Part shown: positions 151 through 22,874 of the stretch, piece after piece
How the letters are laid out: every line of letters starts with the position of its first letter
How positions within the stretch are numbered: position 1 is the stretch's first letter
Assembly (NCBI GenBank): GCA_041498975.1
Contig: JBGQJI010000024.1
Location: 1-25,940 of the forward strand
DNA length: 25,940 nt
From: Candidatus Methylomirabilis sp.
GTDB lineage: Bacteria > Methylomirabilota > Methylomirabilia > Methylomirabilales > Methylomirabilaceae
Direction: 5' to 3'
The notes under the pieces: model-generated
The model's database searches: none
What the model was told of the DNA's origin: nothing
The model's input: only the letters and a program-made list of their open reading frames with translations
Made by a program: the position numbers and the translations under genes

Positions 151-245
151 GAGTTCCGGGTTTCGGGTTTCGGGTTTCGGCTTTCTCGACGGTAGAAACA
201 ATCCTCCCCTTGGAACTCGGAACTCGAAACTCGAAACTCGAAACT
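151..245. repeat. Inverted heptamer tandem array in the nuoK2-nuoL2 spacer
   Basis: 151-180 GAGTTCC-GGGTTTC x3-GG; 212-245 GGAACTC x2-GAAACTC x2-GAAACT; arms complementary allowing G.T pairs. Confidence 0.9.
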
Positions 246-555
246 ACCCTCGAAGGAGATTGATCTCGTCCACATCGACGGACTCCTTGTTCCTGTAGAG
301 CGCAATGATGATGGCCAGGCCGAGCGCCACCTCGGCTGCGGCCACCGCCATCACGAAGAAGACGATGATCTGCCCATCCATCGAGGCAAGAAACCTCGAA
401 AACGCAACAAAGCTCAGGTTCACCGCGTTCAGCATCAGTTCGATCGCCATGAAGATGATCAGGGCATTGCGCCGGATCAGCACCCCGATCACCCCAATGG
501 CGAAGAGCGCAGCGCTCAGGATCAGATACGCATTCAGCGGGACAGTCCCTGTCAT
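244..555 (-). CDS. nuoK: NADH-quinone oxidoreductase subunit K, copy 2
   Basis: [20 protein letters not shown]...[23 protein letters not shown] motifs; start moved to ATG 555 because the ORF-track extension is translated repeat. Confidence 0.96.
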
Positions 556-556
556 C

Positions 557-612
557 GCACCCCGCCCCCCGCACTTCGCGCTTCGCACCTGGCGCTTCGC
601 ACCTCGCACCCC
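557..612. repeat. Eight-unit heptamer tandem array in the nuoJ2-nuoK2 spacer
   Basis: GCACCCC GCCCCCC GCACTTC GCGCTTC GCACCTG GCGCTTC GCACCTC GCACCCC. Confidence 0.85.
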
Positions 613-618
613 ACAGGG

Positions 619-1125
619 CTACCTCTTGGCCAGCACCATCGCGCCGACGATCGCGATGAGCAGGATGAACGAGGTGATCTCGAACGGGATGAGGAAATCG
701 GTGAACAGAAGACGGCCGACAAGCTGGGTATTGCCCACGGCGTTGACGAGGTCAGATGTGTAGGACCCCCGGATGCCGTGGGAGACCCAGGACCCGATGG
801 CGACGGCCAGCTCGAGAAGCAGGAGGGTTACCAGGCCGATGCCCAGCACCAGCCTGGGTGTATCCTGTCGGAGCCAGGGCGGTGGCTCGTGGCCCACGTC
901 GAGCAACATGATCACGAACAGGAACAAGACCATGATCGCTCCGGCGTAGACGATTACCTGTACCACGGCGATGAACTGCGCCTGCAGGAGAAGATAGAGC
1001 CCCGATAGCGCGAAGAACGTCCCAACGAGAGAAAGGGCGCAGTAGATCGGGTTCCGCAGAACGATGACCGATACGGCGGTGGCGAGGGCCACGGCAGCCA
1101 GCGGGCCGAATACCAACCATTCCAT
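619..1125 (-). CDS. nuoJ: NADH-quinone oxidoreductase subunit J, copy 2
   Basis: NPIYCALSL, QVIVYAGAIMVLFLFVIMLL, PFEITSFILLIAIVGA motifs; ATG 1125 lies 2 nt after the nuoH stop. Confidence 0.96.
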   Translation of the reverse strand: MEWLVFGPLAAVALATAVSVIVLRNPIYCALSLVGTFFALSGLYLLLQAQFIAVVQVIVYAGAIMVLFLFVIMLLDVGHEPPPWLRQDTPRLVLGIGLVTLLLLELAVAIGSWVSHGIRGSYTSDLVNAVGNTQLVGRLLFTDFLIPFEITSFILLIAIVGAMVLAKR

Positions 1126-1127
1126 AC

Positions 1128-2117
1128 CTACCTCAGCGCAACAAAGGCAGCCGTGATCATGATGTTGGCGAGCGCCACAGGCAGCAGAAACTTCCATCCG
1201 AATCGCATCAGTTGGTCGTACCTGAAGCGCGGAAGGGTGGCCCTGAGCCAGATGAAGAGGAAGATGAACAGGAAGAGCTTACCCAGAAACCAGACAACCG
1301 GCGGCAGGAACGGCCCCCTCCAGCCGCCCAGAAACAGGGTCGTGGCCATGGCGGATACGGTAATCATGTTGGCATACTCGGCCATGAAGTACATGGCGAA
1401 CTTTATGGAGCTATACTCGACATGGAAACCGGCCACCAGTTCCGTCTCGGCTTCGGGCAGATCGAAGGGGGCGCGGTTAGTCTCAGCGACGGCGCAGATC
1501 AGGAAGATGAGGAAGCCGATCGGCTGAAGCACGATGAACCAGGCTTGTGACTGGGCATTGACGATCTCCACCAGACTCAGCGACCGGGAGAGCATCAGGA
1601 CTCCCACGACCGAGAGGCCTAACGACAGCTCATAGCTGATCATCTGGGCCGCGGAGCGCAGCCCCCCGAGCAACGCATACTTGTTGTTCGAGGCCCAGCC
1701 TCCCAGGACGATCCCGTAGATCCCCAGGGAGGCGACACCGAACACGAACAAGAGCCCGATGTTCACGTCGGTGATGACAAGATCGATGCTCCGGCCGAAG
1801 AGTCGAACCCGGTCCCCGAAAGGGATCACGGCGAAAGAAATGAAGGAGGCGATGAGCGCGAGCGTTGGGGCAAGGAAGTAGAGCACGCGGTCGGCGGCCT
1901 GGGGGACGATGTCCTCCTTGAACATCAGCTTGAGCACGTCGGCGAACGGCTGCAACAGGCCGTGGGGGCCGACCCGCATCGGCCCCAGCCGAACCTGGAT
2001 GTGGCCAAGGACCTTCCGCTCCAACCAGGTCAGATACGCCACGCTCAGCACCATCAGCCCGAAGACCACAATGATCTTCGCCACCATGATGACGAAGAAG
2101 GCGGGTTCCGGCATCAT
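1128..2117 (-). CDS. nuoH: NADH-quinone oxidoreductase subunit H, copy 2
   Basis: [60 protein letters not shown] (start 2117 or 2114). Confidence 0.97.
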
Positions 2118-2134
2118 GTCCCCCTGCTGCCGGC

Positions 2135-3418
2135 CTACGACCCGTCCCTGGATCCGAAGGGGCAGGCATGCTCCACGACGTGTCGCTCGAATTCATCGCC
2201 AAAATATTTCATATAGCTTTGAATCGGCATGGCCGCGGCGTCGCTCAGAGGGCAGATGGTCTTTCCCTGCATGTTGTCGCAGATGTCCAGGAGGAGATCG
2301 AGATCAGCCTTCCTGCCGCGGCCCTCCTCTATCCGCCGAAGCGTCTTGTGGAGCCAGGCGGTCCCTTCCCGGCACTGCGTGCACTGGCCGCACGATTCAT
2401 GATGATAGAACCTGGCGACGACCTCTCCGGTCCGGACCATGCAAGTGGTGTCATCCATCACGATGACACCGCCCGACCCGGCCATCGAACCTGCCTTGGC
2501 CAGGGACTCGAAGTCCATCCGAATATCCAGATGTTGCTCGATGAGAACTGGCACCGAGGAGCCTCCGGGGATCACTGCCTTCAGGCGGCGGCCCCCCCGC
2601 ACCCCGCCCGCATGCTCGAAGATCAACTCCCTCATGGGAACATCGATCGGGAGCTCGTAGTTTCCAGGACGACGGACGTGGCCGCTCACCGAAAAGATCC
2701 GGGTGCCTGTGCTCTTGGGGGTGCCGATGCTGGAGAACCATTCGGCTCCCCGCATCACGATGTGAGGAAGGTTGCTGAGGGTTTCCACGTTGTTCACGAC
2801 GGTGGGCATTCGGTAGAGTCCCGCCGTAGCCGGAAATGGGGGCTTGAGCCGCGGCAAGCCTCGCTTCCCCTCCAGTGACTCCAGCAGCGCGGTTTCCTCT
2901 CCACAGATGTAGGCGCCGGCCCCCCTGTGCGGTTGGATCTCCAACCCAAAACCGCTCCCCAGGATGTCCCTCCCCAAGAAGCCGTGCGCGGCGGCATCAC
3001 TGATCGCCCGCTCGAGGATGCGCGCCCCTGCGATGAACTCGCCTCTGATGTAGATGTAGGCGGTCCTGCAACCGATCGCATAGCTGGCCAGCAGCATCCC
3101 CTCCAAGAGCTGGTGAGGATCCCGCATGATGAGATCCCGATCCTTGAAGGTCCCCGGCTCGCTCTCGTCGGCATTGCAGACCAGATACTTCGTCAGGCCC
3201 GGGTCCTTGGGAACGAAGCCCCACTTCACCCCGGTCGGAAAGCCTGCGCCGCCACGGCCCCTCAATCCCGATCGCCTCACCAACTCGATCAAGCTGGCCG
3301 GGGTATGCTCTTTGAGCGCTTTGGCAATGGCCTGATACCCTCCGGTTGCCACGTAATCCTCGAGGGTCCCACCATACCCTGGAATCTCGAACCGTTTCGT
3401 GAGGATCTTCTCACTCAT
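2135..3418 (-). CDS. nuoF: NADH-quinone oxidoreductase subunit F (FMN, NADH-binding, 4Fe-4S N3)
   Basis: [57 protein letters not shown]...TICPL; ATG 3418 preferred to TTG 3430. Confidence 0.97.
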
Positions 3419-3438
3419 CGTTTTGCTCAATCACAGAA

Positions 3439-3493
3439 GCGCTCAGCGTTCAGCCCTCAGCTTTCAGCAAAAGCGCTGATCGCTGATAGCTCA
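3439..3493. repeat. Inverted heptamer tandem array in the nuoE-nuoF spacer
   Basis: GCGCTCA GCGTTCA GCCCTCA GCTTTCA ... GCTGATC GCTGATA GCTCA. Confidence 0.8.
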
Positions 3494-3949
3494 TTGCTTC
3501 CGCAGCCGGTCAACCAGCGCCGCGACATCCCGTGGGGAAACAGGGCCGTGATAATCGGCGCCCACTTGGATCGCCGGCGCGAGATCGCAGACGGCAAGGC
3601 ATTCGACCCGCTTCAGCGTGAACACTCCATCCCGGGTCGTTTCTCCCGCGGCGACGCCGAGTTCCTCTTCGAGGCGGCGGACCACATGCTCGGCCCCCAT
3701 GAGCGAACAACTCACGTTGTGGCAAACCCAGATCTCCCGCCGCCCCCCGGGTTTCAGGCGAAACAGGTCGTAGAAGGTGGCGACTTCCACCACCTGGACT
3801 GGTGAGAGGCCGAGACGTCTGGCCAACTGGGCCAGAACCTCTTCAGTCAAATACCCTGCCTCCTGCTGGCCGAGGTGCAGCAGGGGAAGGAGGGCGGACC
3901 GCCGATGAGGATAGCGGGACAGAATTTGCTGAATGTCCTCTTCGGTCAT
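3491..3949 (-). CDS. nuoE: NADH-quinone oxidoreductase subunit E (2Fe-2S N1a)
   Basis: RSALLPLLH, EVATFYDLF, CHNVSC...ECLAVCDLAP (four Cys ligands); ATG 3949 with GGGGG upstream. Confidence 0.96.
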   Translation of the reverse strand: MTEEDIQQILSRYPHRRSALLPLLHLGQQEAGYLTEEVLAQLARRLGLSPVQVVEVATFYDLFRLKPGGRREIWVCHNVSCSLMGAEHVVRRLEEELGVAAGETTRDGVFTLKRVECLAVCDLAPAIQVGADYHGPVSPRDVAALVDRLRKQ

Positions 3950-4002
3950 TAATACGCCCCCATGCGCCTCCAACTAACTCCCTCTTGAGTTGGCGTGCAC
4001 CA

Positions 4003-4130
4003 TGCCGGCCCAAGGAACGAGCCTGGCAAGGCGCTGGCCCCGGGACCGACCGAGGCGTACATTCTCAGGTACGTCGCAGGGAGCGGGCCGGGGTTAGCAA
4101 CGCTGCGAGGCGAAGTTAATTGGGCCGGCA
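4003..4130. mobile_element. 128-bp MITE/REP-like imperfect palindrome
   Basis: Perfect 11-bp terminal inverted repeat TGCCGGCCCAA (4003-4013)/TTGGGCCGGCA (4120-4130); inner stems GCTGGCCCCGG/CCGGGGTTAGC and GGCGTAC/GTACGTC. Mobility is inferred. Confidence 0.6.
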
Positions 4131-5303
4131 CTAGCGATCCACTTCGCCCAGGACGATATCGATGCTGCCGATGATCGCTACCAGATCGGCAACCAATCGC
4201 CCCTCCACCATCCTGGCCAGCGATTGGAGGTTCACGAAAGAGGGCGTACGGAAGTGAACCCGGTAAGGCTTGTTGCTCCCGTCGCTGACCAGGTATACGC
4301 CGAACTCGCCCTTTGGCGATTCGATGCTCTGGTACACCTCTCCGGCGGGCACCCGGAACCCTTCCGACCAGAGGAGGAAGTGGTGGATCAGCGCCTCCAT
4401 GCTCTTCTTGACCATCGGCTTGGGCGGTGGCGTCAATTTTGGATCCTGGATGACGATCGGTCCGTCCGGGAGGCGCTCCAGGGACTGGCGGACGATCGCG
4501 ACGCTCTGCCGCATCTCAAAGATGCGGCAGAGGTATCGGTCATAGACATCGCCGTGAGTCCCCCTGGAGATCTCGAACGCATACTGCTCATAGCCCGAAT
4601 AGGGATTGGATTTTCTGATGTCCCATGGGACTCCGCAGGCGCGGAGGCCGGGACCGCTCAAGCCGAGGTCCACAGCGTCCTCCGGCTTGATGACGCCGAT
4701 CCCCTTGGTCCGCTGGATCCAGATCGGATTGTCGGTGAGCAGGTCCTCATACTCGGCCAAGCGGTCGGGAAAGCTGGTTACAAAGGCGCGGGCTGTCTTC
4801 TCGAACCCTTCCGGCAGGTCAGCGAACAACCCTCCCACCCGGAAGTAACTGGACATCATCCGGGCCCCGGCCACCTGCTCGTACATGTCCAGGATCTGCT
4901 CACGCTCCCGGAAGGCGTAGAGGAAGACGCTCATGGCTCCGATGTCGATCGCATGGGTCCCCAGCCAGACCAGATGACTCCCGATCCGGGTCAACTCTGT
5001 CAGCATCACACGGATCGCCTTGGCCCGTGATGGGACCTCGATTCCCAGCAGCTTCTCGACGGCCAATACATACGCCAGATTATTGCTGAGGGGGGCCAGA
5101 TAATCCATCCGGTCCGTGATAGGAATAACCTGCTGGTACCGCTTGCTCTCCGCGATTTTCTCCATTCCGGTGTGCAGGTAGCCGATGTGCGGGGTGCATT
5201 TGACTACGATCTCCCCATCCAGCTCAAGGACCAATCGCAGCACGCCGTGGGTGCTAGGGTGTTGCGGCCCCATGTTGATGGTCATGGTGCGCGCTTCAGT
5301 CAC
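4131..5303 (-). CDS. nuoD: NADH-quinone oxidoreductase subunit D, copy 2 (long type)
   Basis: [51 protein letters not shown] 5303 overlaps the nuoC stop (GTGA), GGAGGAGG upstream. Confidence 0.97.
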
Positions 5304-5809
5304 CCGCCGCCCCCCTCCTCCCACCATTTTGGGGAGGCCTGGACCGGATAGTCTTTCCGGAGCGGATGCCCTTCCCATTCCTCCGGCATCAGGATCCTCC
5401 GGAGATCCGGGTGGCCTTCAAAGCTGATCCCGAACATGTCGAACACTTCGCGCTCGTGCCAATTGGCTGTGCTCCAGACGGGCGTGACGCTCGGGACCAC
5501 CTCGCCCTCCTCAAGCTGGACCTTCAACCGGATCCGCCGCTTGAACTGCAGCGAATAGAGGTGATAGACCACCTCGAAACGTGGATGTTCCGTGAGCCGA
5601 TCAATCGCGGTCAGATCGGAGAGAAAATCGTACCGGAGGTCGGGGTCCTCTTTCAGATGCCGGCAGGCGCGAACGATGTCACCCAATTTGACGAGGATGG
5701 TGGACTCGTTGCGGACACTCCTGGTCGAAAGGACCGCACCCGGGAACCTTTCGCGCAGCCTCCGAACAGTGAGGTTCTCCTCGGCTTCCTCTGCGTTCAC
5801 GTCGTCCAT
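5300..5809 (-). CDS. nuoC: NADH-quinone oxidoreductase subunit C, copy 2
   Basis: [47 protein letters not shown] 5809 overlaps the nuoA 3' end. Confidence 0.96.
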
Positions 5810-6156
5810 TCCAGCCCCCCCTTCTTCCATACGTACAGGAGGCCGACGAGGAGGATGCCGAGGAAGAAGACCATCTCAACCAACCCGAAGAGTTTCAGGT
5901 CATGCAGGACAACCGCCCAGGGGTATAGAAACACGATCTCGATGTCGAAGATGATGAACAGCATCGCGACCAGGTAAAATTTGACCGAGAACCGCTCCCT
6001 GGCAGTGCCGATCGGATCGATCCCGCACTCGTACGTGGACAGCTTTTCCTTGGAAGGCCGCCGAGGCCCAAGCACCGATGATAAGAAGAGGAGAGCCAGG
6101 GCGAAGCCTGCTGCCACGATCACCAGGATGAAGATCGGCAGGTACGAGAGGAGCAC
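5797..6156 (-). CDS. nuoA: NADH-quinone oxidoreductase subunit A, copy 2
   Basis: C-terminal 119 aa of the 486-aa [41 protein letters not shown] 6156 preceded by GAAGGA. Confidence 0.95.
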
Positions 6157-6206
6157 TGCTTCCTTCGTCTGAGCGGTCGGCCGCCGCGCCGAACTTTCGA
6201 CGTCCC

Positions 6207-6572
6207 CTACGGCCCGGGGACCACGTACTTGATGAAGGGATTCGCGAAGAAGATAATCAGGGCTATCAGGAGCACATAAATGGCCAATGATTCGATCAGG
6301 GCCAGCCCGATGATCATGGCCACCTGGATCCGGCCCGCCGCAGAGGGCTGCCGCCCGATCGCGTCCAGCGCGCTCACGATGGCCCGGCTCTGGCCGATCG
6401 CCGCAGCCGCCGATGCGATGGCCATGGCAAATCCCCCCGTCAGGACCGACACGACGAAGAAGGTCGAAGAGTCGGACTTCGCCCCTTCGGCGGCCAGCGC
6501 GGCCGTGGCTCCAAGCGCAAGGACAGCAATCATCAATAATAGCAACACGCGAACTCTTTGTATCCGGCTCAT
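6207..6572 (-). CDS. atpE: ATP synthase Fo subunit c with N-terminal signal-peptide-like extension
   Basis: IGQ...RQP loop...[14 protein letters not shown] 6572 with AAAGGAG RBS. Confidence 0.95.
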
Positions 6573-6602
6573 CGACGCCACTCCTTTCGGCAAGGGACGG
6601 GG

Positions 6603-7322
6603 TTAGTGATGCTCCTCGTGTTCGACTTGAACCGCTCCCGCGATATACACCATGGAGAGCATCACAAAGATAAAGGTCTGGACAACGCTCGTAAAGAGAC
6701 TCAGGGGCATCATGACCGCCAGGTAAATGCCGTATGGAATCACTAACCAGATCAGCGAAAGGAGGATGGCAATGACGCTTTCCTCGCCGAAAATATTGCC
6801 AAACAGTCGAATCGACAGGGAGATCGGCCGAGCCAAGTGGCCGATCAACTCGATCGGAAACATGATGGGGGCCAGCCACAGGATCGGCCCGCAGAAATGG
6901 CGCAGGTAGGCGACGATCCCGTGCTCCCGGATGCCAAAGTAATTGTAGGAGAGGAAGACGGTGATGGCCAATGCCGCCGTGGTGTTGAGGTTGGCCGTCG
7001 GCGGCTTGAGCCCGGGGATGCTTCCCAGGAGATTGCCAACCAGGATGAAGAGGCCGGCCGTGCCGATCAAGGGGAGGTATCGTTTTCCTTTGGGCCCGAT
7101 CATTTGCTCCAACAGGTTTCCGAACGCCTCGACAACTACCTCCATGAGGTTCTGCATCGGTCCCGGCACTGCCTCGAGTCTCCTCGTGGCCAGATATGAC
7201 AGGCTGACCAGGATCGCCATCGCAAGCCAAGCCATCGCCACATGCTCCGGCACCCATGGCCCGGGGATGCCGAGCGGCCCCAGAAAATTAGGAATCTGAA
7301 CAATCGTCGGATGATGTTCCAT
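6603..7322 (-). CDS. atpB: ATP synthase Fo subunit a
   Basis: [33 protein letters not shown] (essential Arg), [16 protein letters not shown] 7322 with GAGGTG upstream. Confidence 0.97.
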
Positions 7323-7370
7323 AACGCTCCCCACCTCTGATGCCCGAGATCACGCACCCCTCCGAATCCA

Positions 7371-7586
7371 TCATCGTCCCCAACGGTTCAGGTCTTTCAG
7401 GAGGTTGAAAAAGCCGGCTGCAACCCCGAAAAGGAAGAATAGGATGGTGAACCACGGGGACGTCTCGAGCCACCGGTCGAGGCCGATGCCGATCGCAGCC
7501 CCTATGGCTATCGAAGCAGCAAAGGTAATCCCCAGCGAACTCAATCCCGCGAGTTGACGCCACAGTGAAGCCTGATCGTCCTTCAT
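7371..7586 (-). CDS. AtpZ/AtpI-family (ATPase gene 1-type) small membrane protein
   Basis: Two hydrophobic helices with GxxLDRWLxTxPW and LFGVAAGF, directly upstream of atpB. Confidence 0.85.
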   Translation of the reverse strand: MKDDQASLWRQLAGLSSLGITFAASIAIGAAIGIGLDRWLETSPWFTILFFLFGVAAGFFNLLKDLNRWGR

Positions 7587-7633
7587 CGCCACGTCGGTGA
7601 ATCCAGCCCTCTAAGACCCCTCTCCCGAGCCTC

Positions 7634-7662: not shown

Positions 7663-7676
7663 GTCTCACCAAGTAA

Positions 7677-7747: not shown

Positions 7748-7750
7748 TAT

Positions 7751-9208
7751 CTACCAGAGCCCGGCGACCGAGGCCCGGGCAAGGTCCAGAAAAGGACCAG
7801 GGTAGACCCCGATGACGAGGGTGCCCGCCGCCGCTACAAAGAGCGCCACCCGCAGGGGCCGGGACGAGCTCAGGGCCAAGCCAGTCGGCGGAAGGTCCCG
7901 CATGTACATCGCCATCACCACCTTCATGTAATAGAAGAGCGAGATGGTAGAATTGACGACGGCGATCACCGCGAGCCAGACGTAGCCACGCTCGATGGCT
8001 GCGCCGAAGAGGTAGAGCTTGCCCACAAAGCCGGCAGTGGGCGGCACACCGGCCAGCGAGAGAAGGAAGATCAACATGGCTGCGGCTGCCATGGGGCTCC
8101 GCTGAGCCAGGCCGGTGAAGTCGTCGATCCGCTCCCCCTTCACCTCTCCCACACAGAGGAGGATCACCATGGCAAACGCGCCAAGCGTCATCAAGGCGTA
8201 CGCCAGCGTGTACAGAAGCGTGGCCGAGATCCCCAGCGGCCGTCCCGCCACCAACCCGATCAGGAGGTACCCGATGTGGGCGATGGAGCTGTAGGCCAGC
8301 ATCCGCTTGATATTGCTCTGCGCGATCGCCACGACATTTCCCACCGTCATCGTGAGTAAAGAAAGGACATAGAAGAGGAGGACCCAGCGATCCTGTAGTC
8401 CCGGGATTGCGACCAGAAAGACCCGCAGGAGGATCGCAAGGCCGGCGATCTCTGAAGCGGCCGCGAGGAGGGCCGTCACCGGGGTGGGGGCCCCCTCGTA
8501 TACGTCGGGGATGTACATGTGAAACGGGACGGCAGCGATCTTGAAGCCGAAGCCTGCCGCCAGCATCACCATGGCCAAAATGAGCGCCGGGTTCGAGAGC
8601 TGGCCCCCTCCCCTTGTCAGGCCGGAGGCGATCTCCTTGAGGCCAGTGGCCCCGGTGAGGCCGTACAACATGACAATCCCGTAGAGAATGATGGCTGACG
8701 AGAAGCCCCCCATGAGCAGGTACTTGAGGGCCGCCTCGTTGCTCCGCCGCTCCCGCTTCAAAAACCCGGCGAGGACGTAGATGGAGATCGACATGGTCTC
8801 CAGCCCGATATAGAGGATCAGCAGGTCTACCGCGCTGGCCATCAGCATCATCCCCAGCGTGGCGAAGAGGATCAGGCCGTAAAACTCCCCCTTGTCAACC
8901 CCTTCTTCCTTCAGGTAGCCGATCGACATGAGGAGGATCAGAGCGGCCGAGATCAGGAACACGATCTTGAAGAAGAGGGCGAAGGGATCACTGAGATACT
9001 GCCCGCTGAAGGCAGACTGGGGGGCTCCCCACCTCCTGATCAGGACTATCAGGGTAAGGAGGACGCCAAGGATGCTCAGGTATCCCAGCCAGTCCCGTTT
9101 GCCTCTCGGGGCGATGAAATCGAGCATGAGGATCAGCATGGCGACCAGGCTCAAGATCACTTCTGGCGCAGCCGTGGAGAGGTCTGCCATATTGAACGCC
9201 TGGGTCAT
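7751..9208 (-). CDS. nuoN: NADH-quinone oxidoreductase subunit N
   Basis: GLETMSISIYVL, SNEAALKY, GFKIAAVPFHMYIPDVYEGAPTPV, KRMLAYSSIAH, SLAGVPPTAGFVGK; ATGA overlap with nuoM. Confidence 0.97.
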   Translation of the reverse strand: MTQAFNMADLSTAAPEVILSLVAMLILMLDFIAPRGKRDWLGYLSILGVLLTLIVLIRRWGAPQSAFSGQYLSDPFALFFKIVFLISAALILLMSIGYLKEEGVDKGEFYGLILFATLGMMLMASAVDLLILYIGLETMSISIYVLAGFLKRERRSNEAALKYLLMGGFSSAIILYGIVMLYGLTGATGLKEIASGLTRGGGQLSNPALILAMVMLAAGFGFKIAAVPFHMYIPDVYEGAPTPVTALLAAASEIAGLAILLRVFLVAIPGLQDRWVLLFYVLSLLTMTVGNVVAIAQSNIKRMLAYSSIAHIGYLLIGLVAGRPLGISATLLYTLAYALMTLGAFAMVILLCVGEVKGERIDDFTGLAQRSPMAAAAMLIFLLSLAGVPPTAGFVGKLYLFGAAIERGYVWLAVIAVVNSTISLFYYMKVVMAMYMRDLPPTGLALSSSRPLRVALFVAAAGTLVIGVYPGPFLDLARASVAGLW

Positions 9209-10869
9209 CGAGGCTCCAGGGACGGTAGTGCGGCCAAGGGATGCATCTGAGGCGGCCCGCTTCGACAGGGCTCAGCGCACCCTTCGACAGAGCTCAGGGC
9301 GGGTGCTTCGAGGCCACTCCCGGAAGGGTCGACCTCAGCGGTGTGCACCTTGTTGACCCGCGTCAGGATGTTCTTGACGGACGCCTCCATCCGACTTAGG
9401 AAGGGAGAGGGGTAGAGCCCGATCCAGAAGCACATGACGATGATGGGGACTAGGGTGCTCATCTCCCTGGGACTGAGGTCCTTGAGCGCGGCGTTCTTCG
9501 GGTTCTCGAGCGCGCCGAACATGGTCCGCTGATAGAGCCACAGCATATAGGCCGCGCCGAGAACGATCCCGGTGACGGCAAAGGCGGCCCAGACATAGTT
9601 GACCCTGAAGGCGCCCACAAGAATCAAAAACTCCCCGATGAACCCATTGAGTCCGGGAAGTCCCATGGAAGAGAGCATGATGATGGCGAACAGCGTGGCG
9701 TAGACCGGCATCTGTTTGGAGAGCCCTCCCAACTCCGAGATGAGCCTGGTGTGGCGCCGGTCGTAAATCAGGCCGACGATCAGGAAGAGGGCGCCGGTCG
9801 AGAGGCCATGATTGACCATCTGGATGATGCTCCCCTGGACACCCTGCATGTTCAGGGCGAACATGCCCAGCATGACGAAGCCCATGTGGCTGACGGAACT
9901 GTAGGCGATCAGGCGCTTCATGTCGGGCTGGACCATGCAGACCATCGCGCCGTAAATGATGGAGATGATCGAGAGGACGACGATCATGGGAACGAAGTGC
10001 CGCGTTGCCTCGGGGAACATCGGCAGATTGAACCGGATAAAGCCGTAGGACCCCATCTTGAGGAGGACGCCTGCCAGAATGACGCTGCCAGCCGTCGGGG
10101 CGTCGGTGTGGGCGTCCGGCAGCCAGGTGTGGAATGGGAACAGCGGAACCTTGATCGCAAAGCTCAGAAAGAATGACAGCCAAACCAGGTCCTGGAACGA
10201 GAACGGAACGCCGAGGAGGGTGAAGAGCGGGGTCGAGGGGTACGAGACCGTCATCAGTCGAAGGAGATCGAAGGTGTAAGCCCCGGTCTGGGAACCATGG
10301 TGGAAGTAGATCGCCAGGATCCCCAGGAGCATGATCACGCTGCCAAACAGGGTATAGAGGAAGAACTTGATGGCCGAGTAGAGACGACGGTCGCTCCCCC
10401 AAACGCCGATGAGGAAATACATCGGGACCAGCATCACCTCCCAGAAAATGTAAAAGAGAAAGAAATCGAGCGCGAAGAAGACCCCGAGCATCCCCGTCTC
10501 AAGGACCAGGAGAAAGGCAAAATACTCCTTCAGCCGCTCCGTGATCGACTCCCATGAACAGATCACCCCGATCACCGACAGGAAGGTGGTCAGCATGACC
10601 AGCCAGATGCTGATGCCGTCGAGGCCAAAGTGATAGGTCACCCCCAGGGAAGGGATCCAGGAGAACTGTTCCACGAACTGCATGTCTGCAGTGGCGGCGT
10701 CGAAGTGGGCCGGAAGCCATAACGACGCCACAAAGCTGGCCAGCGAGAAGGCCAGAGCAGTCCAGCGGATGGCGCCCCTCGACTCCTTCGGGATCAGGAA
10801 GATCAGGACAACTCCGAGCACGGGGAGGTACGCGATCAAGGAAAGGATCGGGAACTGAAGGACATTCAT
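9205..10869 (-). CDS. nuoM: NADH-quinone oxidoreductase subunit M with ~40-aa C-terminal tail
   Basis: FYIFWEVMLVPMY, AIKVPLFPFHTWLPDAH, LAGVLLKMG, AYSSVSHMG, LPGLNGFIGEF; AGGAGG upstream. Confidence 0.97.
   Translation of the reverse strand: MNVLQFPILSLIAYLPVLGVVLIFLIPKESRGAIRWTALAFSLASFVASLWLPAHFDAATADMQFVEQFSWIPSLGVTYHFGLDGISIWLVMLTTFLSVIGVICSWESITERLKEYFAFLLVLETGMLGVFFALDFFLFYIFWEVMLVPMYFLIGVWGSDRRLYSAIKFFLYTLFGSVIMLLGILAIYFHHGSQTGAYTFDLLRLMTVSYPSTPLFTLLGVPFSFQDLVWLSFFLSFAIKVPLFPFHTWLPDAHTDAPTAGSVILAGVLLKMGSYGFIRFNLPMFPEATRHFVPMIVVLSIISIIYGAMVCMVQPDMKRLIAYSSVSHMGFVMLGMFALNMQGVQGSIIQMVNHGLSTGALFLIVGLIYDRRHTRLISELGGLSKQMPVYATLFAIIMLSSMGLPGLNGFIGEFLILVGAFRVNYVWAAFAVTGIVLGAAYMLWLYQRTMFGALENPKNAALKDLSPREMSTLVPIIVMCFWIGLYPSPFLSRMEASVKNILTRVNKVHTAEVDPSGSGLEAPALSSVEGCAEPCRSGPPQMHPLAALPSLEPR
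9260..9297. repeat. 16-nt direct repeat (REP-like) inside the nuoM 3' end
   Basis: CTTCGACAGGGCTCAG (9260-9275) and CTTCGACAGAGCTCAG (9282-9297), one mismatch, 22-nt period. Confidence 0.75.
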
Positions 10870-10887
10870 TGGAGCAGCACACCTCCT

Positions 10888-10967
10888 GTTCCAAGTTCCA
10901 TGTTCCGGGTCCCGGGTTCCAAGCTCCTGGACCTTGTTTGAAACCCCGAATTTGGAACCGGGAACCC
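10888..10967. repeat. Inverted heptamer tandem array in the nuoL1-nuoM spacer
   Basis: GTTCCAA GTTCCAT GTTCCGG GTCCCGG GTTCCAA GCTCCTG ... GAAACCC CGAATTT GGAACCG GGAACCC. Confidence 0.85.
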
Positions 10968-10981
10968 CCTACTGCACCATG

Positions 10982-12952
10982 TCAGGGGAAAATGAAGAGA
11001 TATATAACGACCATGCCGAGGATGCCCAGCGCCATGGCCAGGATATAGTTCTGGACGATGCCCGTCTGCAGCCGGCGAAGACGGAGGCTTCCGCCCTGGA
11101 TCACATCGGCCACAGCATTGACCAGCCCGTCTACGATCTTCAGGTCGTTCCAGGCCGAGAGCAGGCTCAACCGGACGGTCAGCCAACTGCTCCCGTTGAC
11201 CGCCCCGTCAACGACCCTGGAATCTACCCCCCACAGGAAGCGGCAGACGTTCTTCCCGAAGTCGACGAAGATCGCCTGATACAGCTCGTCCACCCAATAC
11301 TTGTTCAACAGAAGGAGATAGACACCCTTCATCCGCTCGGCGAGTGCCGAGGGAAGTTCCGGCCGCCTGATGTAAAACTGGTAGGCCAGGCCGATCCCCA
11401 ACAGTGCGATGGCCAGCGACAGCGCGGCCATGCCGACCTGTGATGAAATCGTGGCATGGGCCATCTCTATCGCCGTTTCGTGAGCAGTCTCGAACACTGG
11501 GGCCACGAAACGATGGTACAACCCCTGGTCGGGAGGGAACCCGAACGCCAAGCCAGCGATCACGGAGAACAACCCGAGCACCACAAGCGGATACGCCATG
11601 TTCGGCGGCGATTCGTGGAGATGGTGACCCACGTGGGCATCGCCACGGAACGGACCGGTGAAGACCTGGAAGAAGAGCCTGAACATATAGAAGGCCGTGA
11701 GGAAAGCACCTACAAGGCCCAGGAGCCACGGAACCGTCAACCCACGCTCGAAGGCGTTGAACAAGATCTCGTCCTTAGACCAAAAACCGGCCAGGGGGAA
11801 GATCCCCGCGTTCGCCAGCGAGGCCAGCAGGAAGGTCCAGGCAGTGATCGGCATTGCCTTCCAAAGCCCGCCCATCCTTCGGATGTCCTGCTCCCCATGC
11901 AGCGAATGAATGACCGAGCCTGCGCCAAGGAAGAGGAGGGCCTTAAAAAAGGCATGGGTGCCCAGGTGGAAGATGGCCGAGGCGTAGGCTCCCGCGCCCG
12001 CACCCAGGAACATGTACCCGAGCTGCGAGATGGTGGAATAGGCCACGACCCGCTTGATGTCGTTCTGGACGAGCGCGATCGTGGCAGAGAAGACGGCAGT
12101 CAGCGCGCCGACCCAGGCCACCAGGTCGAGGCTGAACGGCGCGAGGTTATAGAGCGGGTGCGACCGGGCCACCATGTAGACACCAGCCGTCACCATGGTA
12201 GCCGCGTGGATCAGCGCCGACACCGGGGTCGGCCCTTCCATCGCATCGGGTAGCCAGACGTAAAGCGGGAGCTGCGCCGACTTTCCCATCGCCCCCACGA
12301 ACAGTAGCAGCGTGATCGCGGTATAGATCCCCGTACCAAGGGCGGGGTCGACCGCCTTGAAGACATCAGCGTACTTCAGCGAGCCGAATGTGCTCCAGAT
12401 GAGGAAGAGCCCGAGCAGGAATCCGGCGTCGCCGATCCGGTTGACGACGAAGGCCTTTTTCCCGGCGTCCGCCGCCGATTGTTTCTCATACCAGAAGCCT
12501 ATCAGAAGGTATGAGCAGAGCCCGACCCCCTCCCACCCCAGAAACATCAGGAGATAGTTGTTGGCCAGCACAAGCACCAACATGGAGAACATGAAGAGGT
12601 TGAGGTAGGTGAAGAACCGGGCGTAGCCGCGGTCGTCGTGCATGTAACCGATCGAATAGACGTGAATCAGAAATCCCACGAAGGTGACCACCAGCATCAT
12701 GACCGCCGAGAGCGGGTCGACCAGAAGCCCGATCGGCGCCTGGAAGTCGCCGACTTCCAGCCAGGAGTAGAGGTCCCAATCGAGGCCTTCACCGCCGACC
12801 GCCCGGACGAAGACCAGGAACGCCACAAGGCACGACAGCCCCGAAGCGGAGACGGCGATCAGGTGGGCTCGGCCCCTGATCTTGCTCCCAAACAGCCCGT
12901 TGATCAGGACCCCGAGCAGGGGCAGCAATGGTACGAGCACAACGAGTTTCAT
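10982..12952 (-). CDS. nuoL: NADH-quinone oxidoreductase subunit L, copy 1, with extended lateral helix
   Basis: GWEGVGLCSYLLIGFW, GKSAQLPLYVWLPDAMEGPTPVSALIHAATMV, HAFFKALLFL, GFWSKDEIL, QTG; start ATG 12952 (upstream extension is translated repeat). Confidence 0.97.
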   Translation of the reverse strand: MKLVVLVPLLPLLGVLINGLFGSKIRGRAHLIAVSASGLSCLVAFLVFVRAVGGEGLDWDLYSWLEVGDFQAPIGLLVDPLSAVMMLVVTFVGFLIHVYSIGYMHDDRGYARFFTYLNLFMFSMLVLVLANNYLLMFLGWEGVGLCSYLLIGFWYEKQSAADAGKKAFVVNRIGDAGFLLGLFLIWSTFGSLKYADVFKAVDPALGTGIYTAITLLLFVGAMGKSAQLPLYVWLPDAMEGPTPVSALIHAATMVTAGVYMVARSHPLYNLAPFSLDLVAWVGALTAVFSATIALVQNDIKRVVAYSTISQLGYMFLGAGAGAYASAIFHLGTHAFFKALLFLGAGSVIHSLHGEQDIRRMGGLWKAMPITAWTFLLASLANAGIFPLAGFWSKDEILFNAFERGLTVPWLLGLVGAFLTAFYMFRLFFQVFTGPFRGDAHVGHHLHESPPNMAYPLVVLGLFSVIAGLAFGFPPDQGLYHRFVAPVFETAHETAIEMAHATISSQVGMAALSLAIALLGIGLAYQFYIRRPELPSALAERMKGVYLLLLNKYWVDELYQAIFVDFGKNVCRFLWGVDSRVVDGAVNGSSWLTVRLSLLSAWNDLKIVDGLVNAVADVIQGGSLRLRRLQTGIVQNYILAMALGILGMVVIYLFIFP

Positions 12953-12956
12953 ATGG

Positions 12957-13096
12957 GTTCCAGGTTCCAGGTTCCCCATTCAAGGTTCAAAGTTCTAGGT
13001 TGCGACAAGCTCAAGGTTTTCCGTTCAAGGCCCAAGCTTCCAGGAGTCTGAATCAGGATGCCCTTCAACCTTGAACGTTGCACTTTGGACCTTGAC
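12957..13096. repeat. Inverted heptamer tandem array in the nuoK1-nuoL1 spacer
   Basis: GTTCCAG x2, GTTCCCC, ATTCAAG, GTTCAAA, GTTCTAG; GCTCAAG GTTTTCC GTTCAAG GCCCAAG CTTCCAG; opposite arm CCTTCAA CCTTGAA CGTTGCA CTTTGGA CCTTGAC. Confidence 0.85.
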
Positions 13097-13102
13097 CATT
13101 CC

Positions 13103-13411
13103 TTACCATTTCATCAGATTGATTTCGTCAACATTGACGGTTTTGAAGTTGCGGTACAGCCCGAGGATGATCGCGAGCCCCACTGCCGCCTCAGCCGCGG
13201 CCACCGTGATGACGAAGATGGCGAAGATCTGTCCCTGCAGCATCGTCTGGGGAAGATATCGAGAGAATGCCACGAAGTCGAGGTTGACGGCGTTGAACAT
13301 CAATTCCAGCGCCATGAGAATCCCGATGGCGTTGCGGCGCGTCAGGGCCCCGAACATCCCGATGGCGAAGAGGGCCGCGCTGAGGATCAAGTAGTGCGAA
13401 AGCGGTACCAT
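13103..13411 (-). CDS. nuoK: NADH-quinone oxidoreductase subunit K, copy 1
   Basis: [42 protein letters not shown]. Confidence 0.97.
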
Positions 13412-13414
13412 CCC

Positions 13415-13918
13415 TCAGTCCTTTTCCCGGTCTCGCCTGGCCAGGATGATGGCGCCGACCATCGCTGCCAAGAGTAGGATCGACACGGCCTCGAATGGCA
13501 GGACATATGTCGTCAGCAGAAGCCGTCCCAACGAGGCAGTGGCATACGACGCCGGAGGGGGTGAGCCCGCAGGAACGATCCCTCTCAGGTTGGCATAGGC
13601 CATGAGGGCGAAGATGGCGAAGACCACCAGGGCGCTGATCCCCGCCTGTTCGTTCAAGATCTTGACACCTCGGGCTGAGATACGGCTGGTCAACATGATG
13701 GCGAAGAGCAACAGGATGGTAATTCCACCCACATACAGCAGGACCTGAACTGCCGCCAGGAACTCCGCATCGAGGAGGATGTACAGAGCGGCCACGCCGA
13801 AGAAGGTAAAGACCAGCGCGATGGCAGAATGGACGATATTCGTGGCCAGAACCACAAGGAAAGCCGCCCCCAGGGTGAAGGCAGCCAGGATATAGAACAC
13901 AGCCTGGGTGACGGTCAT
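13415..13918 (-). CDS. nuoJ: NADH-quinone oxidoreductase subunit J, copy 1
   Basis: NIVHSAIAL, AEFLAAVQVLLYVGGITILLLFAIML, PFEAVSILLLAAMVGA; ATG 13918 with GAGGAGG RBS. Confidence 0.96.
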   Translation of the reverse strand: MTVTQAVFYILAAFTLGAAFLVVLATNIVHSAIALVFTFFGVAALYILLDAEFLAAVQVLLYVGGITILLLFAIMLTSRISARGVKILNEQAGISALVVFAIFALMAYANLRGIVPAGSPPPASYATASLGRLLLTTYVLPFEAVSILLLAAMVGAIILARRDREKD

Positions 13919-13935
13919 CGGCGACCTCCTCGCCA

Positions 13936-14952
13936 CTACCCGCGAAGGACCAAGACCAGCCCGGTGACTCCCATGTTCAGAAACGCCAGCGGCAGCAGGA
14001 CCTTCCACCCCAGGTACATGAGCTGATCGACGCGCAGCCTGGCCAGGGTCCAGCGAAGCCACATCATGACGAAGATAAGAAAATAGGTCTTCACGAGGAA
14101 CCAGAGCCACGGCGGCAGCAGCGGCCCATGCCATCCCCCCAGAAAAAGCGTAGTGGCAATCGCCGACACGGTGAACATGTTGGCATACTCCGCCAGGAAG
14201 AAGATGGCGAAGCGCATCCCGCTATATTCAACGTGAAAGCCGGCCACCAGCTCCGATTCGGCTTCCGGGATGTCGAACGGCAACCGGTTGCACTCGGCGA
14301 TCGCCGCCATGAGGTAGATGAGGAACCCTAAGAACTGCGGGATCACGAACCAGATCCGCTGCTGCGCCTCCACGATCTGGATCATGCTGAGAGACCCCAC
14401 CGTCATGATCACCCCGATGACCGAAACGACAAGGGGAATCTCGTAGCTGACCGCCTGGGCCGCCGATCGAAGCGCGCCCAGGACCGAGTACTTGTTGTTG
14501 GAGCTCCAGCCGGCCATGATAATCCCCACCACGGTCAGGGAGGAGATCGAGATATAAAAGAGGACGCCGATGTTCAGGTCCCGGACGATCAGGTGTGGGC
14601 CGAAGGGGATGATCACGTAGGCGGCGAGCGCGGCGGCGAAGACGACCATCGGCGCCAGGGCAAACACCACCTTGTCTGCGCCGGCGGGAATGATGTCCTC
14701 CTTGATGAGGAGCTTGATCCCGTCGGCGATGCTCTGGGCCCAGCCGTGCCAGCCGCCGACCCTCATCGGCCCGTACCGGACCTGGATGTGCGCGCTGATC
14801 TTCCGTTCCCACCAGATCATGAACATGACCGAGACGGAGATGAAGAGAATGACCACGCTCACCACCACCAGCATCACGATCAACTGGGGGACGACTGGGG
14901 GTACGCCCCACGCGGCAAAGGCGTTGTAGAACCTCTCTACGGCGTTTTCCAT
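13936..14952 (-). CDS. nuoH: NADH-quinone oxidoreductase subunit H, copy 1
   Basis: ERKISAHIQVRYGP, SNNKYSVLGALRSAAQ, AECNRLPFDIPEAESELVAG, RLRVDQLM. Confidence 0.97.
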   Translation of the reverse strand: MENAVERFYNAFAAWGVPPVVPQLIVMLVVVSVVILFISVSVMFMIWWERKISAHIQVRYGPMRVGGWHGWAQSIADGIKLLIKEDIIPAGADKVVFALAPMVVFAAALAAYVIIPFGPHLIVRDLNIGVLFYISISSLTVVGIIMAGWSSNNKYSVLGALRSAAQAVSYEIPLVVSVIGVIMTVGSLSMIQIVEAQQRIWFVIPQFLGFLIYLMAAIAECNRLPFDIPEAESELVAGFHVEYSGMRFAIFFLAEYANMFTVSAIATTLFLGGWHGPLLPPWLWFLVKTYFLIFVMMWLRWTLARLRVDQLMYLGWKVLLPLAFLNMGVTGLVLVLRG

Positions 14953-15045
14953 CAGCGTCTCGCGCCCATGGTCGGCGCACCAGTGCCCGGCACGGGAGGC
15001 GTCAGAGGTGAAGGTGAAGGAAGGCGGGTCAGCCCCACTGCGATA

Positions 15046-16179
15046 TCATCGGTCCACCTCGCCCAGGACGATGTCGATGCTCCCCAGGATGGCCACCATA
15101 TCTGCGACGAGGTGCCCCGGACCGATCACGGGGAGCACGCTCAGGTTGACAAATGTCGGAGCGCGGACCTTGTAACGGTAGGGCTTCTCGGAGCCGTCAG
15201 ACACGATGTAGAATCCAAGCTCGCCCCTGGGCGACTCGACCCTGGAGTAGATGTCTCCCACCGGCGGCTTGATCTTCTTGGGGACCTTCCCCATGATCTC
15301 ACCAGGGGGCAGGGCCCGGAGGGCCTGCTCGACGATCTTCACGCTCTCCGCCATCTCAATCCGTCTGACCATGTAGCGGTCCCAGATGTCGCCGGCGCGC
15401 CCCACGGGGATGTCGAATTCGAAACGGTCGTAGATGGAGTACGGGTCGTTCCTCCGAAGGTCCCACTTGATGCCGCTGCCCCGGAGCATCGGCCCACTGA
15501 TCGCGTAGTCGATGGCGGTCTTCTGGTCGAGCTTCCCAAGTCCCTGCACACGCTTCTGGAAGATGATGTTGTCGGTCATCACGGCGTCGTACTCCGGCAG
15601 GCGCGGCTTGAACCATTCCAGAAACGCCTTGCAATCCGCCAGGAACGTCGGCGGAAAGTCCATCGGCATCCCACCGATCCTGTAAAAGGAGTAGTTCAGG
15701 CGCTGCCCGGAGACCGACTCGAACAGGTCAAGGATCTTCTCCCGCTCCCGGAAGCAGTACATGAAGATCGTGAAGTTCCCCAGATCGAGCCCGAAGGTGC
15801 CCATCCAGATCAGGTGGCTGGCAATCCGTTGCAACTCCGCCAGAATCACCCGCATATACTCGGCCCGCTCCGGCACCTGGAGCCCCATCAAGCGCTCCAC
15901 CGCCAGGACATACCCGAAGTTGTTGTACATCGAGGCGAGATAGTCCAGTCGATCGGTATACGGGATGACCTGGATATAGGTCCGGTTTTCGCCGATCTTC
16001 TCGTGACAGCGGTGCAGGTAGCCGATGTATGGGACCACCTCGCTGACCACCTCGCCGTCTAGCTTCAACAGCAGGCGCAGGACCCCGTGTGTGCTGGGGT
16101 GCTGCGGCCCCATGTTGACGTACATCTCCTCCATCGTTTCCTGGAGGTGTTCAGTGACCACGGGTTCTGGCGGATTCAT
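15046..16179 (-). CDS. nuoD: NADH-quinone oxidoreductase subunit D, copy 1 (short type)
   Basis: [48 protein letters not shown]; no hydrogenase Ni-binding CxxC pairs. Confidence 0.97.
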   Translation of the reverse strand: MNPPEPVVTEHLQETMEEMYVNMGPQHPSTHGVLRLLLKLDGEVVSEVVPYIGYLHRCHEKIGENRTYIQVIPYTDRLDYLASMYNNFGYVLAVERLMGLQVPERAEYMRVILAELQRIASHLIWMGTFGLDLGNFTIFMYCFREREKILDLFESVSGQRLNYSFYRIGGMPMDFPPTFLADCKAFLEWFKPRLPEYDAVMTDNIIFQKRVQGLGKLDQKTAIDYAISGPMLRGSGIKWDLRRNDPYSIYDRFEFDIPVGRAGDIWDRYMVRRIEMAESVKIVEQALRALPPGEIMGKVPKKIKPPVGDIYSRVESPRGELGFYIVSDGSEKPYRYKVRAPTFVNLSVLPVIGPGHLVADMVAILGSIDIVLGEVDR

Positions 16180-16271
16180 ACTTCAACTCTTGGTTGTCTC
16201 TTCCTGCTGTGAGGTCTGTTCCAGCAATCCCCTTACGCCGTCGCCGAAGCTCCCCGTCGGGCTGCTTCGCG

Positions 16272-16736
16272 CTACGCCGGCTCGTACGGAACCAGTCGCT
16301 CGTCCTGATAGTCCTTCCGCAAGGGATGGCCCACCCAATCCTCAGATGTGAGGATTCGCCGAAGATCGGGGTGGCCATCGAAGCGGATGCCCATCAGGTC
16401 ATAGGCCTCCCGTTCATGCCAGTCCGCCGTGCTCCAGAGGGACACGACGCTCCGGATGACCGGGTCCTCCCTCGGGACCCTGACCCTGACCAGAGCCTTG
16501 GTCGGCTCCTTGAGGGAGGAGAGATTATAGACCGCCTCAAGCTCGCCACTGGCGATCCGGTCCACGGAGCTGAGGCAGTTGAGGTAGTCGAACCCCATCC
16601 CCTTCAGCCCGGCGAGAATCTCATAACTTTTCCCCCGATCGATATCCATCCGGGCCTCGACACCCTTGACCTCCGAAGCCTTGACGGCCTCGCAGAACTG
16701 CGACCTGATCGCCTGGATCACCTCCTCGGGCGTCAT
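16272..16736 (-). CDS. nuoC: NADH-quinone oxidoreductase subunit C, copy 1
   Basis: [34 protein letters not shown] 16736 overlaps the nuoA stop (TGATG). Confidence 0.96.
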   Translation of the reverse strand: MTPEEVIQAIRSQFCEAVKASEVKGVEARMDIDRGKSYEILAGLKGMGFDYLNCLSSVDRIASGELEAVYNLSSLKEPTKALVRVRVPREDPVIRSVVSLWSTADWHEREAYDLMGIRFDGHPDLRRILTSEDWVGHPLRKDYQDERLVPYEPA

Positions 16737-17095
16737 CAGACCCACTCCAGGGCGCCTTTCCGCCAAGCATAGGCGAAGCCCACCAGCAGGATGGCGATAA
16801 AAAGCATCATCTCCACGAATGCAAACAGCCCGAGTTTCCGGAAAACGATCGCCCAGGGATAGAGGAAGATCGTCTCCACGGTGAAGATGACATAGACCAG
16901 GGCGTACAGGTAGTAGCGGACGTGGACGCGAATCCAGGGGCTGCCGATCGCGTCCTCACCGCACTCGTACGTGGTCAACTTCTCCGGCTGGGGGTTACTC
17001 GGGCGAAGCAGGCGGGAAACGACGTCGACGTTGACGACGACGAACAGCACGCCCACCACCAGGAAAACGCCCACGACTGCGTAATCTGCCGCCAT
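16736..17095 (-). CDS. nuoA: NADH-quinone oxidoreductase subunit A, copy 1
   Basis: KLTTYECGE, RYYLYALVYVIFTVETIFLYPW, AWRKGALEW; TAGGTG RBS. Confidence 0.96.
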   Translation of the reverse strand: MAADYAVVGVFLVVGVLFVVVNVDVVSRLLRPSNPQPEKLTTYECGEDAIGSPWIRVHVRYYLYALVYVIFTVETIFLYPWAIVFRKLGLFAFVEMMLFIAILLVGFAYAWRKGALEWV

Positions 17096-22841: not shown

Positions 22842-22874
22842 CCACTCCTCCGTGCGACGAGCAGAACAATGGCT

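What the first reader, a model, noticed from the sequence alone, without database searches (positions are those of the whole stretch)
11069..11224. NuoL1 lateral helix has a 26-aa duplication ('2M' complex I hallmark) but the module has only one nuoM
Seen: DSRVVDGAVNGSSWLTVRLSLLSAWN (11224-11147) is followed by DLKIVDGLVNAVADVIQGGSLRLRRL (11146-11069), so the D-x-x-[VI]-V-D-G-x-V-N motif occurs twice exactly 26 aa apart, giving 75 residues from the D of DELY to the Q of QTG. Established: ordinary NuoL/Nqo12 has one such unit (about 48-50 residues over this span, from memory), and ~26-aa insertions in this helix characterise complex I homologs with an extra NuoM antiporter subunit, proposed to pump an additional proton. 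Seen: the gene order here is L-M-N with a single nuoM. Inference: a fourth antiporter-like subunit is supplied in trans (for example by module 2 beyond the window), NuoM is used twice, or the helix is a relic of a lost nuoM.
Basis: partly seen in the sequence, partly recalled or inferred. Interest (0 to 1): 0.8.

Follow-up and report, generated by a model that had tools for sequence, protein, structure and literature searches.

The report
Doubled NuoL strap helix, one nuoM
The side helix that straps together the proton pumps of one respiratory complex I in this bacterium carries a second 26-residue docking unit although its operon has a single nuoM gene; this state is common across bacteria and likely means that the NuoM pump is built in twice, which remains untested.

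Summary
NuoL1 has two D-x-x-[VI]-V-D-G-x-V-N units 26 residues apart: a span of 75, against 50 in its paralogue NuoL2, and +25/26 against solved NuoL chains. The operon is L-M-N, and the assembly holds only two L-M-N triads.

It is not a marker of a second nuoM gene. Of 67 two-unit loci from many phyla with full context, 65 have one nuoM. Twelve Chlorobiales-type genomes show no other antiporter gene, and a whole order has three units with one nuoM. PMC9040806 noted the mismatch in Manganitrophaceae, and this scan found it before on other DNA.

The extra unit is not a decaying relic. It is under purifying selection, keeps an invariant Asp, is predicted as one continuous helix and tracks the NuoM lineage.

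Best reading (about 0.5): the helix acts as a ruler and one nuoM supplies two copies (L-M-M-N). The locus is an ordinary member of a widespread type with an open, testable question.

The parts
11147..11224 (-). Lateral-helix (HL) unit 1 of NuoL1, residues 586-611
   Evidence: D586 invariant in 120 tails although outside the search pattern
11069..11146 (-). HL unit 2 of NuoL1, residues 612-637, ending just before QTG
   Evidence: D612 invariant in 120 tails
11225..11290 (-). HL leader, residues 564-585 (from the D of DELY)
10994..11068 (-). QTG motif and last transmembrane helix (TM16, predicted helix 642-662) that anchors HL
10982..12979 (-). nuoL1 (665 aa from the first ATG; the true start may be the second Met)
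   Evidence: NCBIfam PRK06590 and TIGR01974 above cut-off
9205..10869 (-). nuoM1, the only nuoM of module 1; E144, K168, K240, H254, K271 and E413 intact
   Evidence: TIGR01972 above cut-off; conserved residues
7751..9208 (-). nuoN1, overlapping the nuoM1 stop by 4 bases
   Evidence: TIGR01770 above cut-off; coordinates
13103..17095 (-). Rest of module 1: nuoA-C-D-H-J-K (no nuoB, I, E, F or G in this module)
6207..7592 (-). Small ORF (no family match; atpI/atpZ-like by position, label recalled), atpB and atpE between the two modules
244..6150 (-). Module 2: nuoA-C-D-E-F-H-J-K, continued on G000:C125 by nuoL2 (one HL unit), nuoM2, nuoN2 and a rex-like gene (label recalled)

Best explanation
NuoL1 carries a lateral helix lengthened by one complete, conserved 26-residue docking unit, and this helix likely acts as a ruler that makes room for a fourth antiporter-like subunit, likely filled by a second copy of NuoM1 made from the single gene (L-M-M-N). 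Shown: the insertion, one nuoM per module, no spare antiporter gene in the assembly, and selection on both units. Predicted: the helix runs straight through both units, about 39 A longer (26 x 1.5 A, from helix geometry). Inferred: each D-x-x-V-V-D-G-x-V-N unit docks on one NuoM, and TM16 anchored at NuoN fixes the count at two. The arm would then move five rather than four protons per two electrons. Module 1 has no nuoEF and the assembly's one nuoG sits with a nuoB-nuoI pair elsewhere, so module 1 would plausibly be the low-potential (ferredoxin-type) or reverse-running enzyme and module 2 the ordinary NADH enzyme. That division of labour is inferred, not tested.
For: (1) In solved relatives, HL length follows the number of antiporter modules (PMC8165549, passages). 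(2) The repeat is the whole docking unit. Its first Asp was not in my search pattern, yet is invariant in both units in 120 tails. It lies at about E. coli residue 563-564 in the structural alignment; that this Asp docks on NuoM is recalled. (3) Lengths are stepwise. In 80 metagenome loci picked by core motifs only, the 55 measurable spans were 44 (1), 49-52 (44), 75-76 (9) and 60 (1, a parsing error on a two-unit tail). Three-unit tails measure 101. (4) Both units are as constrained as the leader and TM16 in three groups not selected by the pattern: uncorrected pN/pS 0.35 and 0.28 in 22 module-1 orthologues, 0.24 and 0.17 in 14 Chlorobiales, 0.36-0.39 in 10 three-unit proteins. (5) AlphaFold2 gives one continuous helix, residues 560-638 in the full chain and across the whole tail at pLDDT 92 with a 120-row alignment; the model's TM16 aligns with no solved chain. 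(6) The inserted half-unit in 77 long forms from single-nuoM or context-incomplete loci matches that of 8 two-nuoM operons in hydrophobic moment (0.31 vs 0.34, p = 0.65), has no Pro, and shares T601, S605 and F611. (7) Helix length follows the NuoM lineage (3 changes on a 163-row tree, shuffled mean 50) more tightly than the NuoL core (9 changes on 91 rows). In G030 the two NuoL paralogues share 1170 identical bases that end at the start of HL. (8) Both NuoM copies of two-nuoM operons keep Glu at TM12 (16 of 16), so an M-against-M junction needs no charge change. (9) Many genomes show no other antiporter to fill the space.
Against: There is no direct evidence: no structure, stoichiometry or complex model. 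No solved complex I with the same antiporter built in twice turned up among the chains listed. In this lineage unit 1 is only weakly amphipathic (hydrophobic moment 0.02-0.13 in the window; 0.08-0.27 in five order members). In the full-length model residues 611-640 have pLDDT 44-58, and a lone-chain model cannot show how the helix lies on partners. Once two units exist, unequal crossing-over yields whole multiples without any function, and the indel itself could stop a conversion tract. The G030 identity could also be a collapsed repeat in the assembly. The NuoM tree shows only about two origins, so the co-segregation has little statistical power. A candidate NuoM interface signature (Leu174) failed its control, because canonical mycobacterial NuoM has it too. 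Earlier notes of this scan (unchecked) report two to seven units changing among relatives, and arms with up to seven NuoM copies are hard to credit.
Confidence: 0.5

Rival explanations
1. The arm is a normal L-M-N. The extra unit bulges or folds away on the membrane surface, and is kept because either unit can dock or because it stabilises the arm.
For: One nuoM gene in 65 of 67 loci. Low amphipathicity of unit 1 in this order and low confidence at residues 611-640. Tolerance of short HL insertions in E. coli is recalled; the one related paper I tried is not held. Unchecked earlier notes report labile unit numbers.
Against: Two invariant docking Asp residues, no intermediate lengths in the unselected sample, no Pro in 77 inserted segments, selection equal to the rest of HL and a continuous predicted helix.
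Confidence: 0.27
2. The second unit docks on something other than an in-line NuoM, such as a second complex I, an accessory subunit or the Fo part of ATP synthase, whose atpB and atpE genes follow the module.
For: This explains conservation without a fourth pump. atpB/atpE genes follow long-helix modules in this order, in several Acidobacteriota loci and in the three-unit order.
Against: Most long-helix loci have no atp genes beside them. The unit keeps the sequence of the single canonical unit. No candidate accessory gene was seen in module 1.
Confidence: 0.12
3. A fourth antiporter is supplied in trans, NuoM2 of module 2 being shared to give L1-M1-M2-N1.
For: Many long-helix genomes carry a second L-M-N set: all 5 and 3 of 5. 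In 13 such genomes whose second set I read, its NuoL has one unit.
Against: NuoM2 has its own NuoL2 and NuoN2. Twelve two-unit Chlorobiales-type genomes and 6 of 6 tested three-unit genomes show only three antiporter genes, so trans supply cannot be the general rule.
Confidence: 0.08
4. The second unit is a functionless relic of a lost nuoM.
For: In the clade holding NuoM1, the two copies from a two-nuoM lineage branch off in turn before the single-copy group in the best tree, and 0 of 200 bootstrap trees join them. An ancestral loss is therefore possible.
Against: The AU test does not reject the two copies as sisters (p = 0.119). In the other long-helix clade the two-nuoM pair is nested among single-nuoM rows. 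The unit is retained in 25 of 25 readable orthologues and under selection.
Confidence: 0.03

Closest known systems
Long-helix NuoL in the single-nuoM clusters Complex_I_1 and Complex_I_2 of Ca. Manganitrophaceae (PMC9040806; section 10 and passages read, Fig. S2 not seen)
   Same: An HL insertion of the 2M type in clusters of canonical gene content. The authors offer two readings: already able to take extra pumping subunits, or in evolutionary transition.
   Different: Different phylum. The text I read does not name repeated use of one NuoM. I did not align those proteins with NuoL1.
2M complex I (Chadwick et al. 2018, ISME J 12:2668; not held, known only through PMC6606698, PMC7117926, PMC7419157, PMC9040806 and recall)
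   Same: NuoL lengthened by about 26 residues. NuoM1 falls in one supported clade (100/99) with both NuoM copies of L-M-M-N operons from the class of G106, whose NuoL tails have the same two units.
   Different: No second nuoM gene in the module or spare in the assembly.
Canonical NuoL/Nqo12/NdhF helix HL (E. coli 3RKO, T. thermophilus 4HE8, Paracoccus 8QBY, Mycobacterium 8E9G, T. elongatus 6HUM)
   Same: Same fold (Z 50-53) and the same leader, docking unit, QTG and TM16.
   Different: One unit, 25-26 residues shorter.

Membership tests
2M complex I | NuoL lateral helix lengthened by about one subunit width (about 26 aa) | tested here: met
2M complex I | Second nuoM gene in the cluster | tested here: not met
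   L-M-N in the window and in 11 of 11 relatives read; six PF00361 genes in two triads in G000
2M complex I | Four antiporter-like subunits in the assembled arm | not testable with these tools
2M complex I | Descent from a two-nuoM ancestor | tested here: inconclusive
   NuoM1 shares a clade with 2M copies; order of events unresolved, AU p = 0.119
Canonical NuoL (TIGR01974 / PRK06590) | Antiporter-like core above the family cut-off | tested here: met
Canonical NuoL (TIGR01974 / PRK06590) | Single docking unit in HL, span about 50 | tested here: not met
   span 75
Long-helix, single-nuoM complex I (Manganitrophaceae Complex_I_1/2 type) | HL insertion with one nuoM in the cluster | tested here: met
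   type described in PMC9040806 section 10
Long-helix, single-nuoM complex I (Manganitrophaceae Complex_I_1/2 type) | Insertion homologous in position to that of the Manganitrophaceae proteins | not tested
   Those sequences were not fetched and Fig. S2 is not held

The most novel reading that the evidence does not exclude
A large, hidden class of complex I enzymes across many bacterial phyla sets its proton stoichiometry with a tape-measure helix. One nuoM gene supplies two copies (L-M-M-N; here, in Chlorobiales, Ignavibacteria, Acidobacteriota and others) or three copies (L-M-M-M-N; the order of G051). The repeated 'convergent' rise of two-nuoM operons is then simple gene duplication of a subunit that already stacked on itself.
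Probability: 0.45. Interest if true: 0.85.

Novelty: new member of a known kind. Interest (0 to 1): 0.5.

Why it matters
Gene counts are used to assign complex I proton stoichiometry: three pumps for L-M-N, four for L-M-M-N. If the helix rather than the gene number sets the count, many anaerobes, phototrophs and autotrophs have five- or six-proton enzymes that annotation misses, which changes their energy budgets and their scope for reverse electron flow to ferredoxin. It would also be a complex I arm with one subunit in two positions, a natural test of how coupling passes between antiporter modules. If false, the accepted use of the insertion as evidence for a fourth pump fails. Either outcome is informative, and named isolates with the trait exist (L068, L071, L134, L158). 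The locus itself is an ordinary member.

Tried and rejected

2. NuoM 'self-stacking signature'. Positions 136, 167, 174 and 236 differ between long- and short-associated NuoM (Leu174 in 57 of 59 clade A+B rows and 1 of 62 short rows). Solved canonical mycobacterial NuoM also has Leu there, so it is rejected as diagnostic.

3. Translation signals. Over 80 long and 54 short operons, nuoM Shine-Dalgarno strength relative to L and N differed weakly (p = 0.053), and L-M and M-N gaps were longer in long operons (medians 40 vs 11 and 12 vs -4). The operons are kin and starts were guessed, so this is inconclusive.

5. Solved two-unit NuoL: none listed by sequence or fold search.

6. Literature. Searches listed no paper whose title or abstract start reports a structure or stoichiometry of a long-helix single-nuoM enzyme. 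The library lacks most subscription papers, including Chadwick 2018, which may already discuss this. PMC11291895 (passages) was irrelevant. The supplement search of PMC9040806 gave nothing, and Fig. S2 is not held.

7. Rows dropped. L005 and L028 failed extraction and L030 was cut. 13 of 80 loci lacked nuoN context, and 39 further pattern loci had no flanks. The G091 tail was not read and G070 has a one-unit NuoL. Near-duplicate rows, L037's NuoM and L244 were left out of the trees.

Full report
Observation. The window holds two tandem, incomplete nuo modules on the minus strand, separated by atpB and atpE: module 1 is nuoA-C-D-H-J-K-L-M-N and module 2 is nuoA-C-D-E-F-H-J-K. NuoL1 (10982-12979, 665 aa) has the motif D-x-x-[VI]-V-D-G-x-V-N at residues 586 and 612, and spans 75 residues from D564 to Q638. 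The units share 35 of 78 bases, and 0 of 20,000 shuffles gave two motifs. Against solved chains the insertion is +25 to +26, and each solved chain's single unit matches both profile units.

Organism and genome. The closest titled loci with the same genes are a 'candidate division NC10' record (L061) and a 'Methylomirabilales' record (L130), at 67% NuoL identity, so the lineage is inferred to be Methylomirabilales. Module 2 continues on G000:C125 with nuoL2-M2-N2; NuoL2 spans 50. G000 (84.9% complete) has six PF00361 genes, exactly these two triads. The single-contig same-genus genome G008 has the same six plus two weaker hits in a separate cluster. nuoB and nuoI occur twice elsewhere in G000, one pair beside nuoG. 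There is no spare nuoM.

Conservation in the order. Of 27 best-scoring loci, less the window itself and one failed extraction, 25 of 25 module-1 orthologues have two units (span 75-76; L027 read by eye). All 11 module-2 tails have one unit (L048 read by eye). Module 1 is L-M-N with one nuoM in 11 of 11 relatives read.

Distribution elsewhere. All 80 with flanks are NuoL, from Bacteroidota, Chlorobi, Ignavibacteria, Acidobacteriota, Planctomycetota, Chloroflexota, deltaproteobacteria, Thermoplasmatota and others. Of the 67 with context through nuoN, 65 have one nuoM and 2 have two. This sample is selected for the motif and may miss diverged 2M proteins. In 80 metagenome loci picked by core motifs alone, spans were bimodal, and the six long ones with full context all had one nuoM. 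In the order of G049 (record title Chlorobiales), 14 of 41 genomes have only three PF00361 matches at E <= 1e-30. Twelve of these have a two-unit NuoL, one tail was not read and one has a single unit. In the order of G051 (record title Caldisericales), 11 of 11 NuoL tails have three units, and the 10 loci that reach nuoN have one nuoM. Six of 6 tested have only three antiporter genes, two of them near-single-contig genomes. The insertion thus does not mark a second nuoM gene, and trans supply cannot be general.

Is the extra unit functional? The first Asp of each unit was outside the pattern, yet D586 and D612 are invariant in 120 tails. In three groups not selected by the pattern, every unit is about as constrained as the leader and TM16 (uncorrected proportions, synonymous sites near saturation). 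The inserted half-unit in 77 long forms from single-nuoM or context-incomplete loci resembles that of 8 two-nuoM operons in amphipathicity and shared residues, and has no Pro. In this order it is only weakly amphipathic. AlphaFold2 predicts a continuous helix from 560 to 638, with low confidence at 611-640. With a deeper tail alignment it predicts an unbroken helix at pLDDT 92 and pTM 0.43. Structural alignments to solved NuoL end by residue 631, leaving the model's TM16 unmatched. These are lone-chain models and only suggestive.

History. On a NuoM tree, long versus short partner helix needs 3 changes among 163 rows. On the NuoL core tree it needs 9 among 91 rows, partly because paralogous cores group by genome in G030 and G054. 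In G030 the two NuoL genes share 1170 identical bases, residues 174-563, ending at the start of HL while the tails stay distinct. This fits a tail matched to its NuoM partner, but an indel blocking conversion or an assembly artefact would look the same. NuoM1 lies in a supported clade (100/99) with both copies of a two-nuoM lineage. The best tree suggests loss of one copy, but sisterhood of the copies is not rejected. In a second long-helix clade the archaeal two-nuoM pair is nested among single-nuoM rows, so there the long helix likely came first.

Mechanism. In solved complex-I-like enzymes HL is just long enough to span the antiporter modules present (PMC8165549, passages). One extra, fully conserved docking unit therefore most simply implies one extra NuoM-type surface, and in genomes without another candidate that can only be NuoM itself. 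Both copies in two-nuoM operons keep the TM12 Glu, so such a junction exists at gene level. I put L-M-M-N from one gene at about 0.5, a normal arm with the unit bulging out at 0.27, docking on another partner at 0.12, trans supply at 0.08 and an inert relic at 0.03. No complex model could be run. A candidate interface signature failed its control, and translation signals were inconclusive.

Comparison with what is known. [quoted passage not shown] The original paper was not held and may already treat single-nuoM cases. This module meets the first criterion and fails the second, so it is not filed as 2M. PMC9040806 (section 10 read; Fig. S2 not seen) already reports the insertion in NuoL of canonical-order clusters and leaves its meaning open. 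This scan recorded the same mismatch in at least nine other genomes, and three-unit and longer forms as well.

Verdict. The feature is real, conserved and functional-looking, but it is an ordinary member of a widespread type already glimpsed in print. Its value is the open and testable question of whether one nuoM gene fills two positions.

Noticed in passing
window 244-17095; G000:C40 and G000:C111: Both nuo modules lack nuoB and nuoI. These lie elsewhere as nuoG-nuoB-nuoI (C40) and nuoB-nuoI (C111). The two-module layout with atpB-atpE between is kept across the order; module 2 lacks nuoC and nuoD in G030 and G020.
   Followed up: partly
window 1-300 and the end of G000:C125: The contig ends overlap in nuoK2 and the nuoL2 start but differ in the K-L spacer, with no exact join: strain variation or an assembly fork.
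   Followed up: no
window about 145-245 and 10900-10980: Intergenic spacers hold short tandem and inverted repeats of 6-7 bases, seen by eye. Earlier scan notes mention similar repeats in nuo spacers.
   Followed up: no
L043:9467-11452 and L044:1816-3744 (G030); L250 and L260 (G054): Paralogous nuoL cores are homogenised within genomes (1170 identical bases in G030), while the N-terminal part and the HL tail stay distinct.
   Followed up: partly
L204, L232-L241: A whole order (seed record titled Caldisericales) has three HL units with a single nuoM; nine of the ten loci that reach nuoN in L232-L241 and L204 show atpB next, and all ten by at least an atpB hit.
   Followed up: yes
L037:7080-10232 (G032): nuoM2 and nuoN2 read as one open frame of 1051 aa: a fusion or a sequence error.
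   Followed up: no
L257 (G010:C10:633000-640800): One same-genus genome has a third, unrelated L-M-N set with its own nuoB and nuoI and a short helix.
   Followed up: partly
G000 whole assembly: No pmoA/amoA match (PF02461) in G000 (84.9% complete), G014, G030 or G032; one in G008. The organism may be a non-methanotrophic member.
   Followed up: partly
window 17634-25887: A run of ORFs that look like glycosyltransferases, membrane sugar transferases and an oxidoreductase lies upstream of module 1 (judged by eye, not scanned).
   Followed up: no
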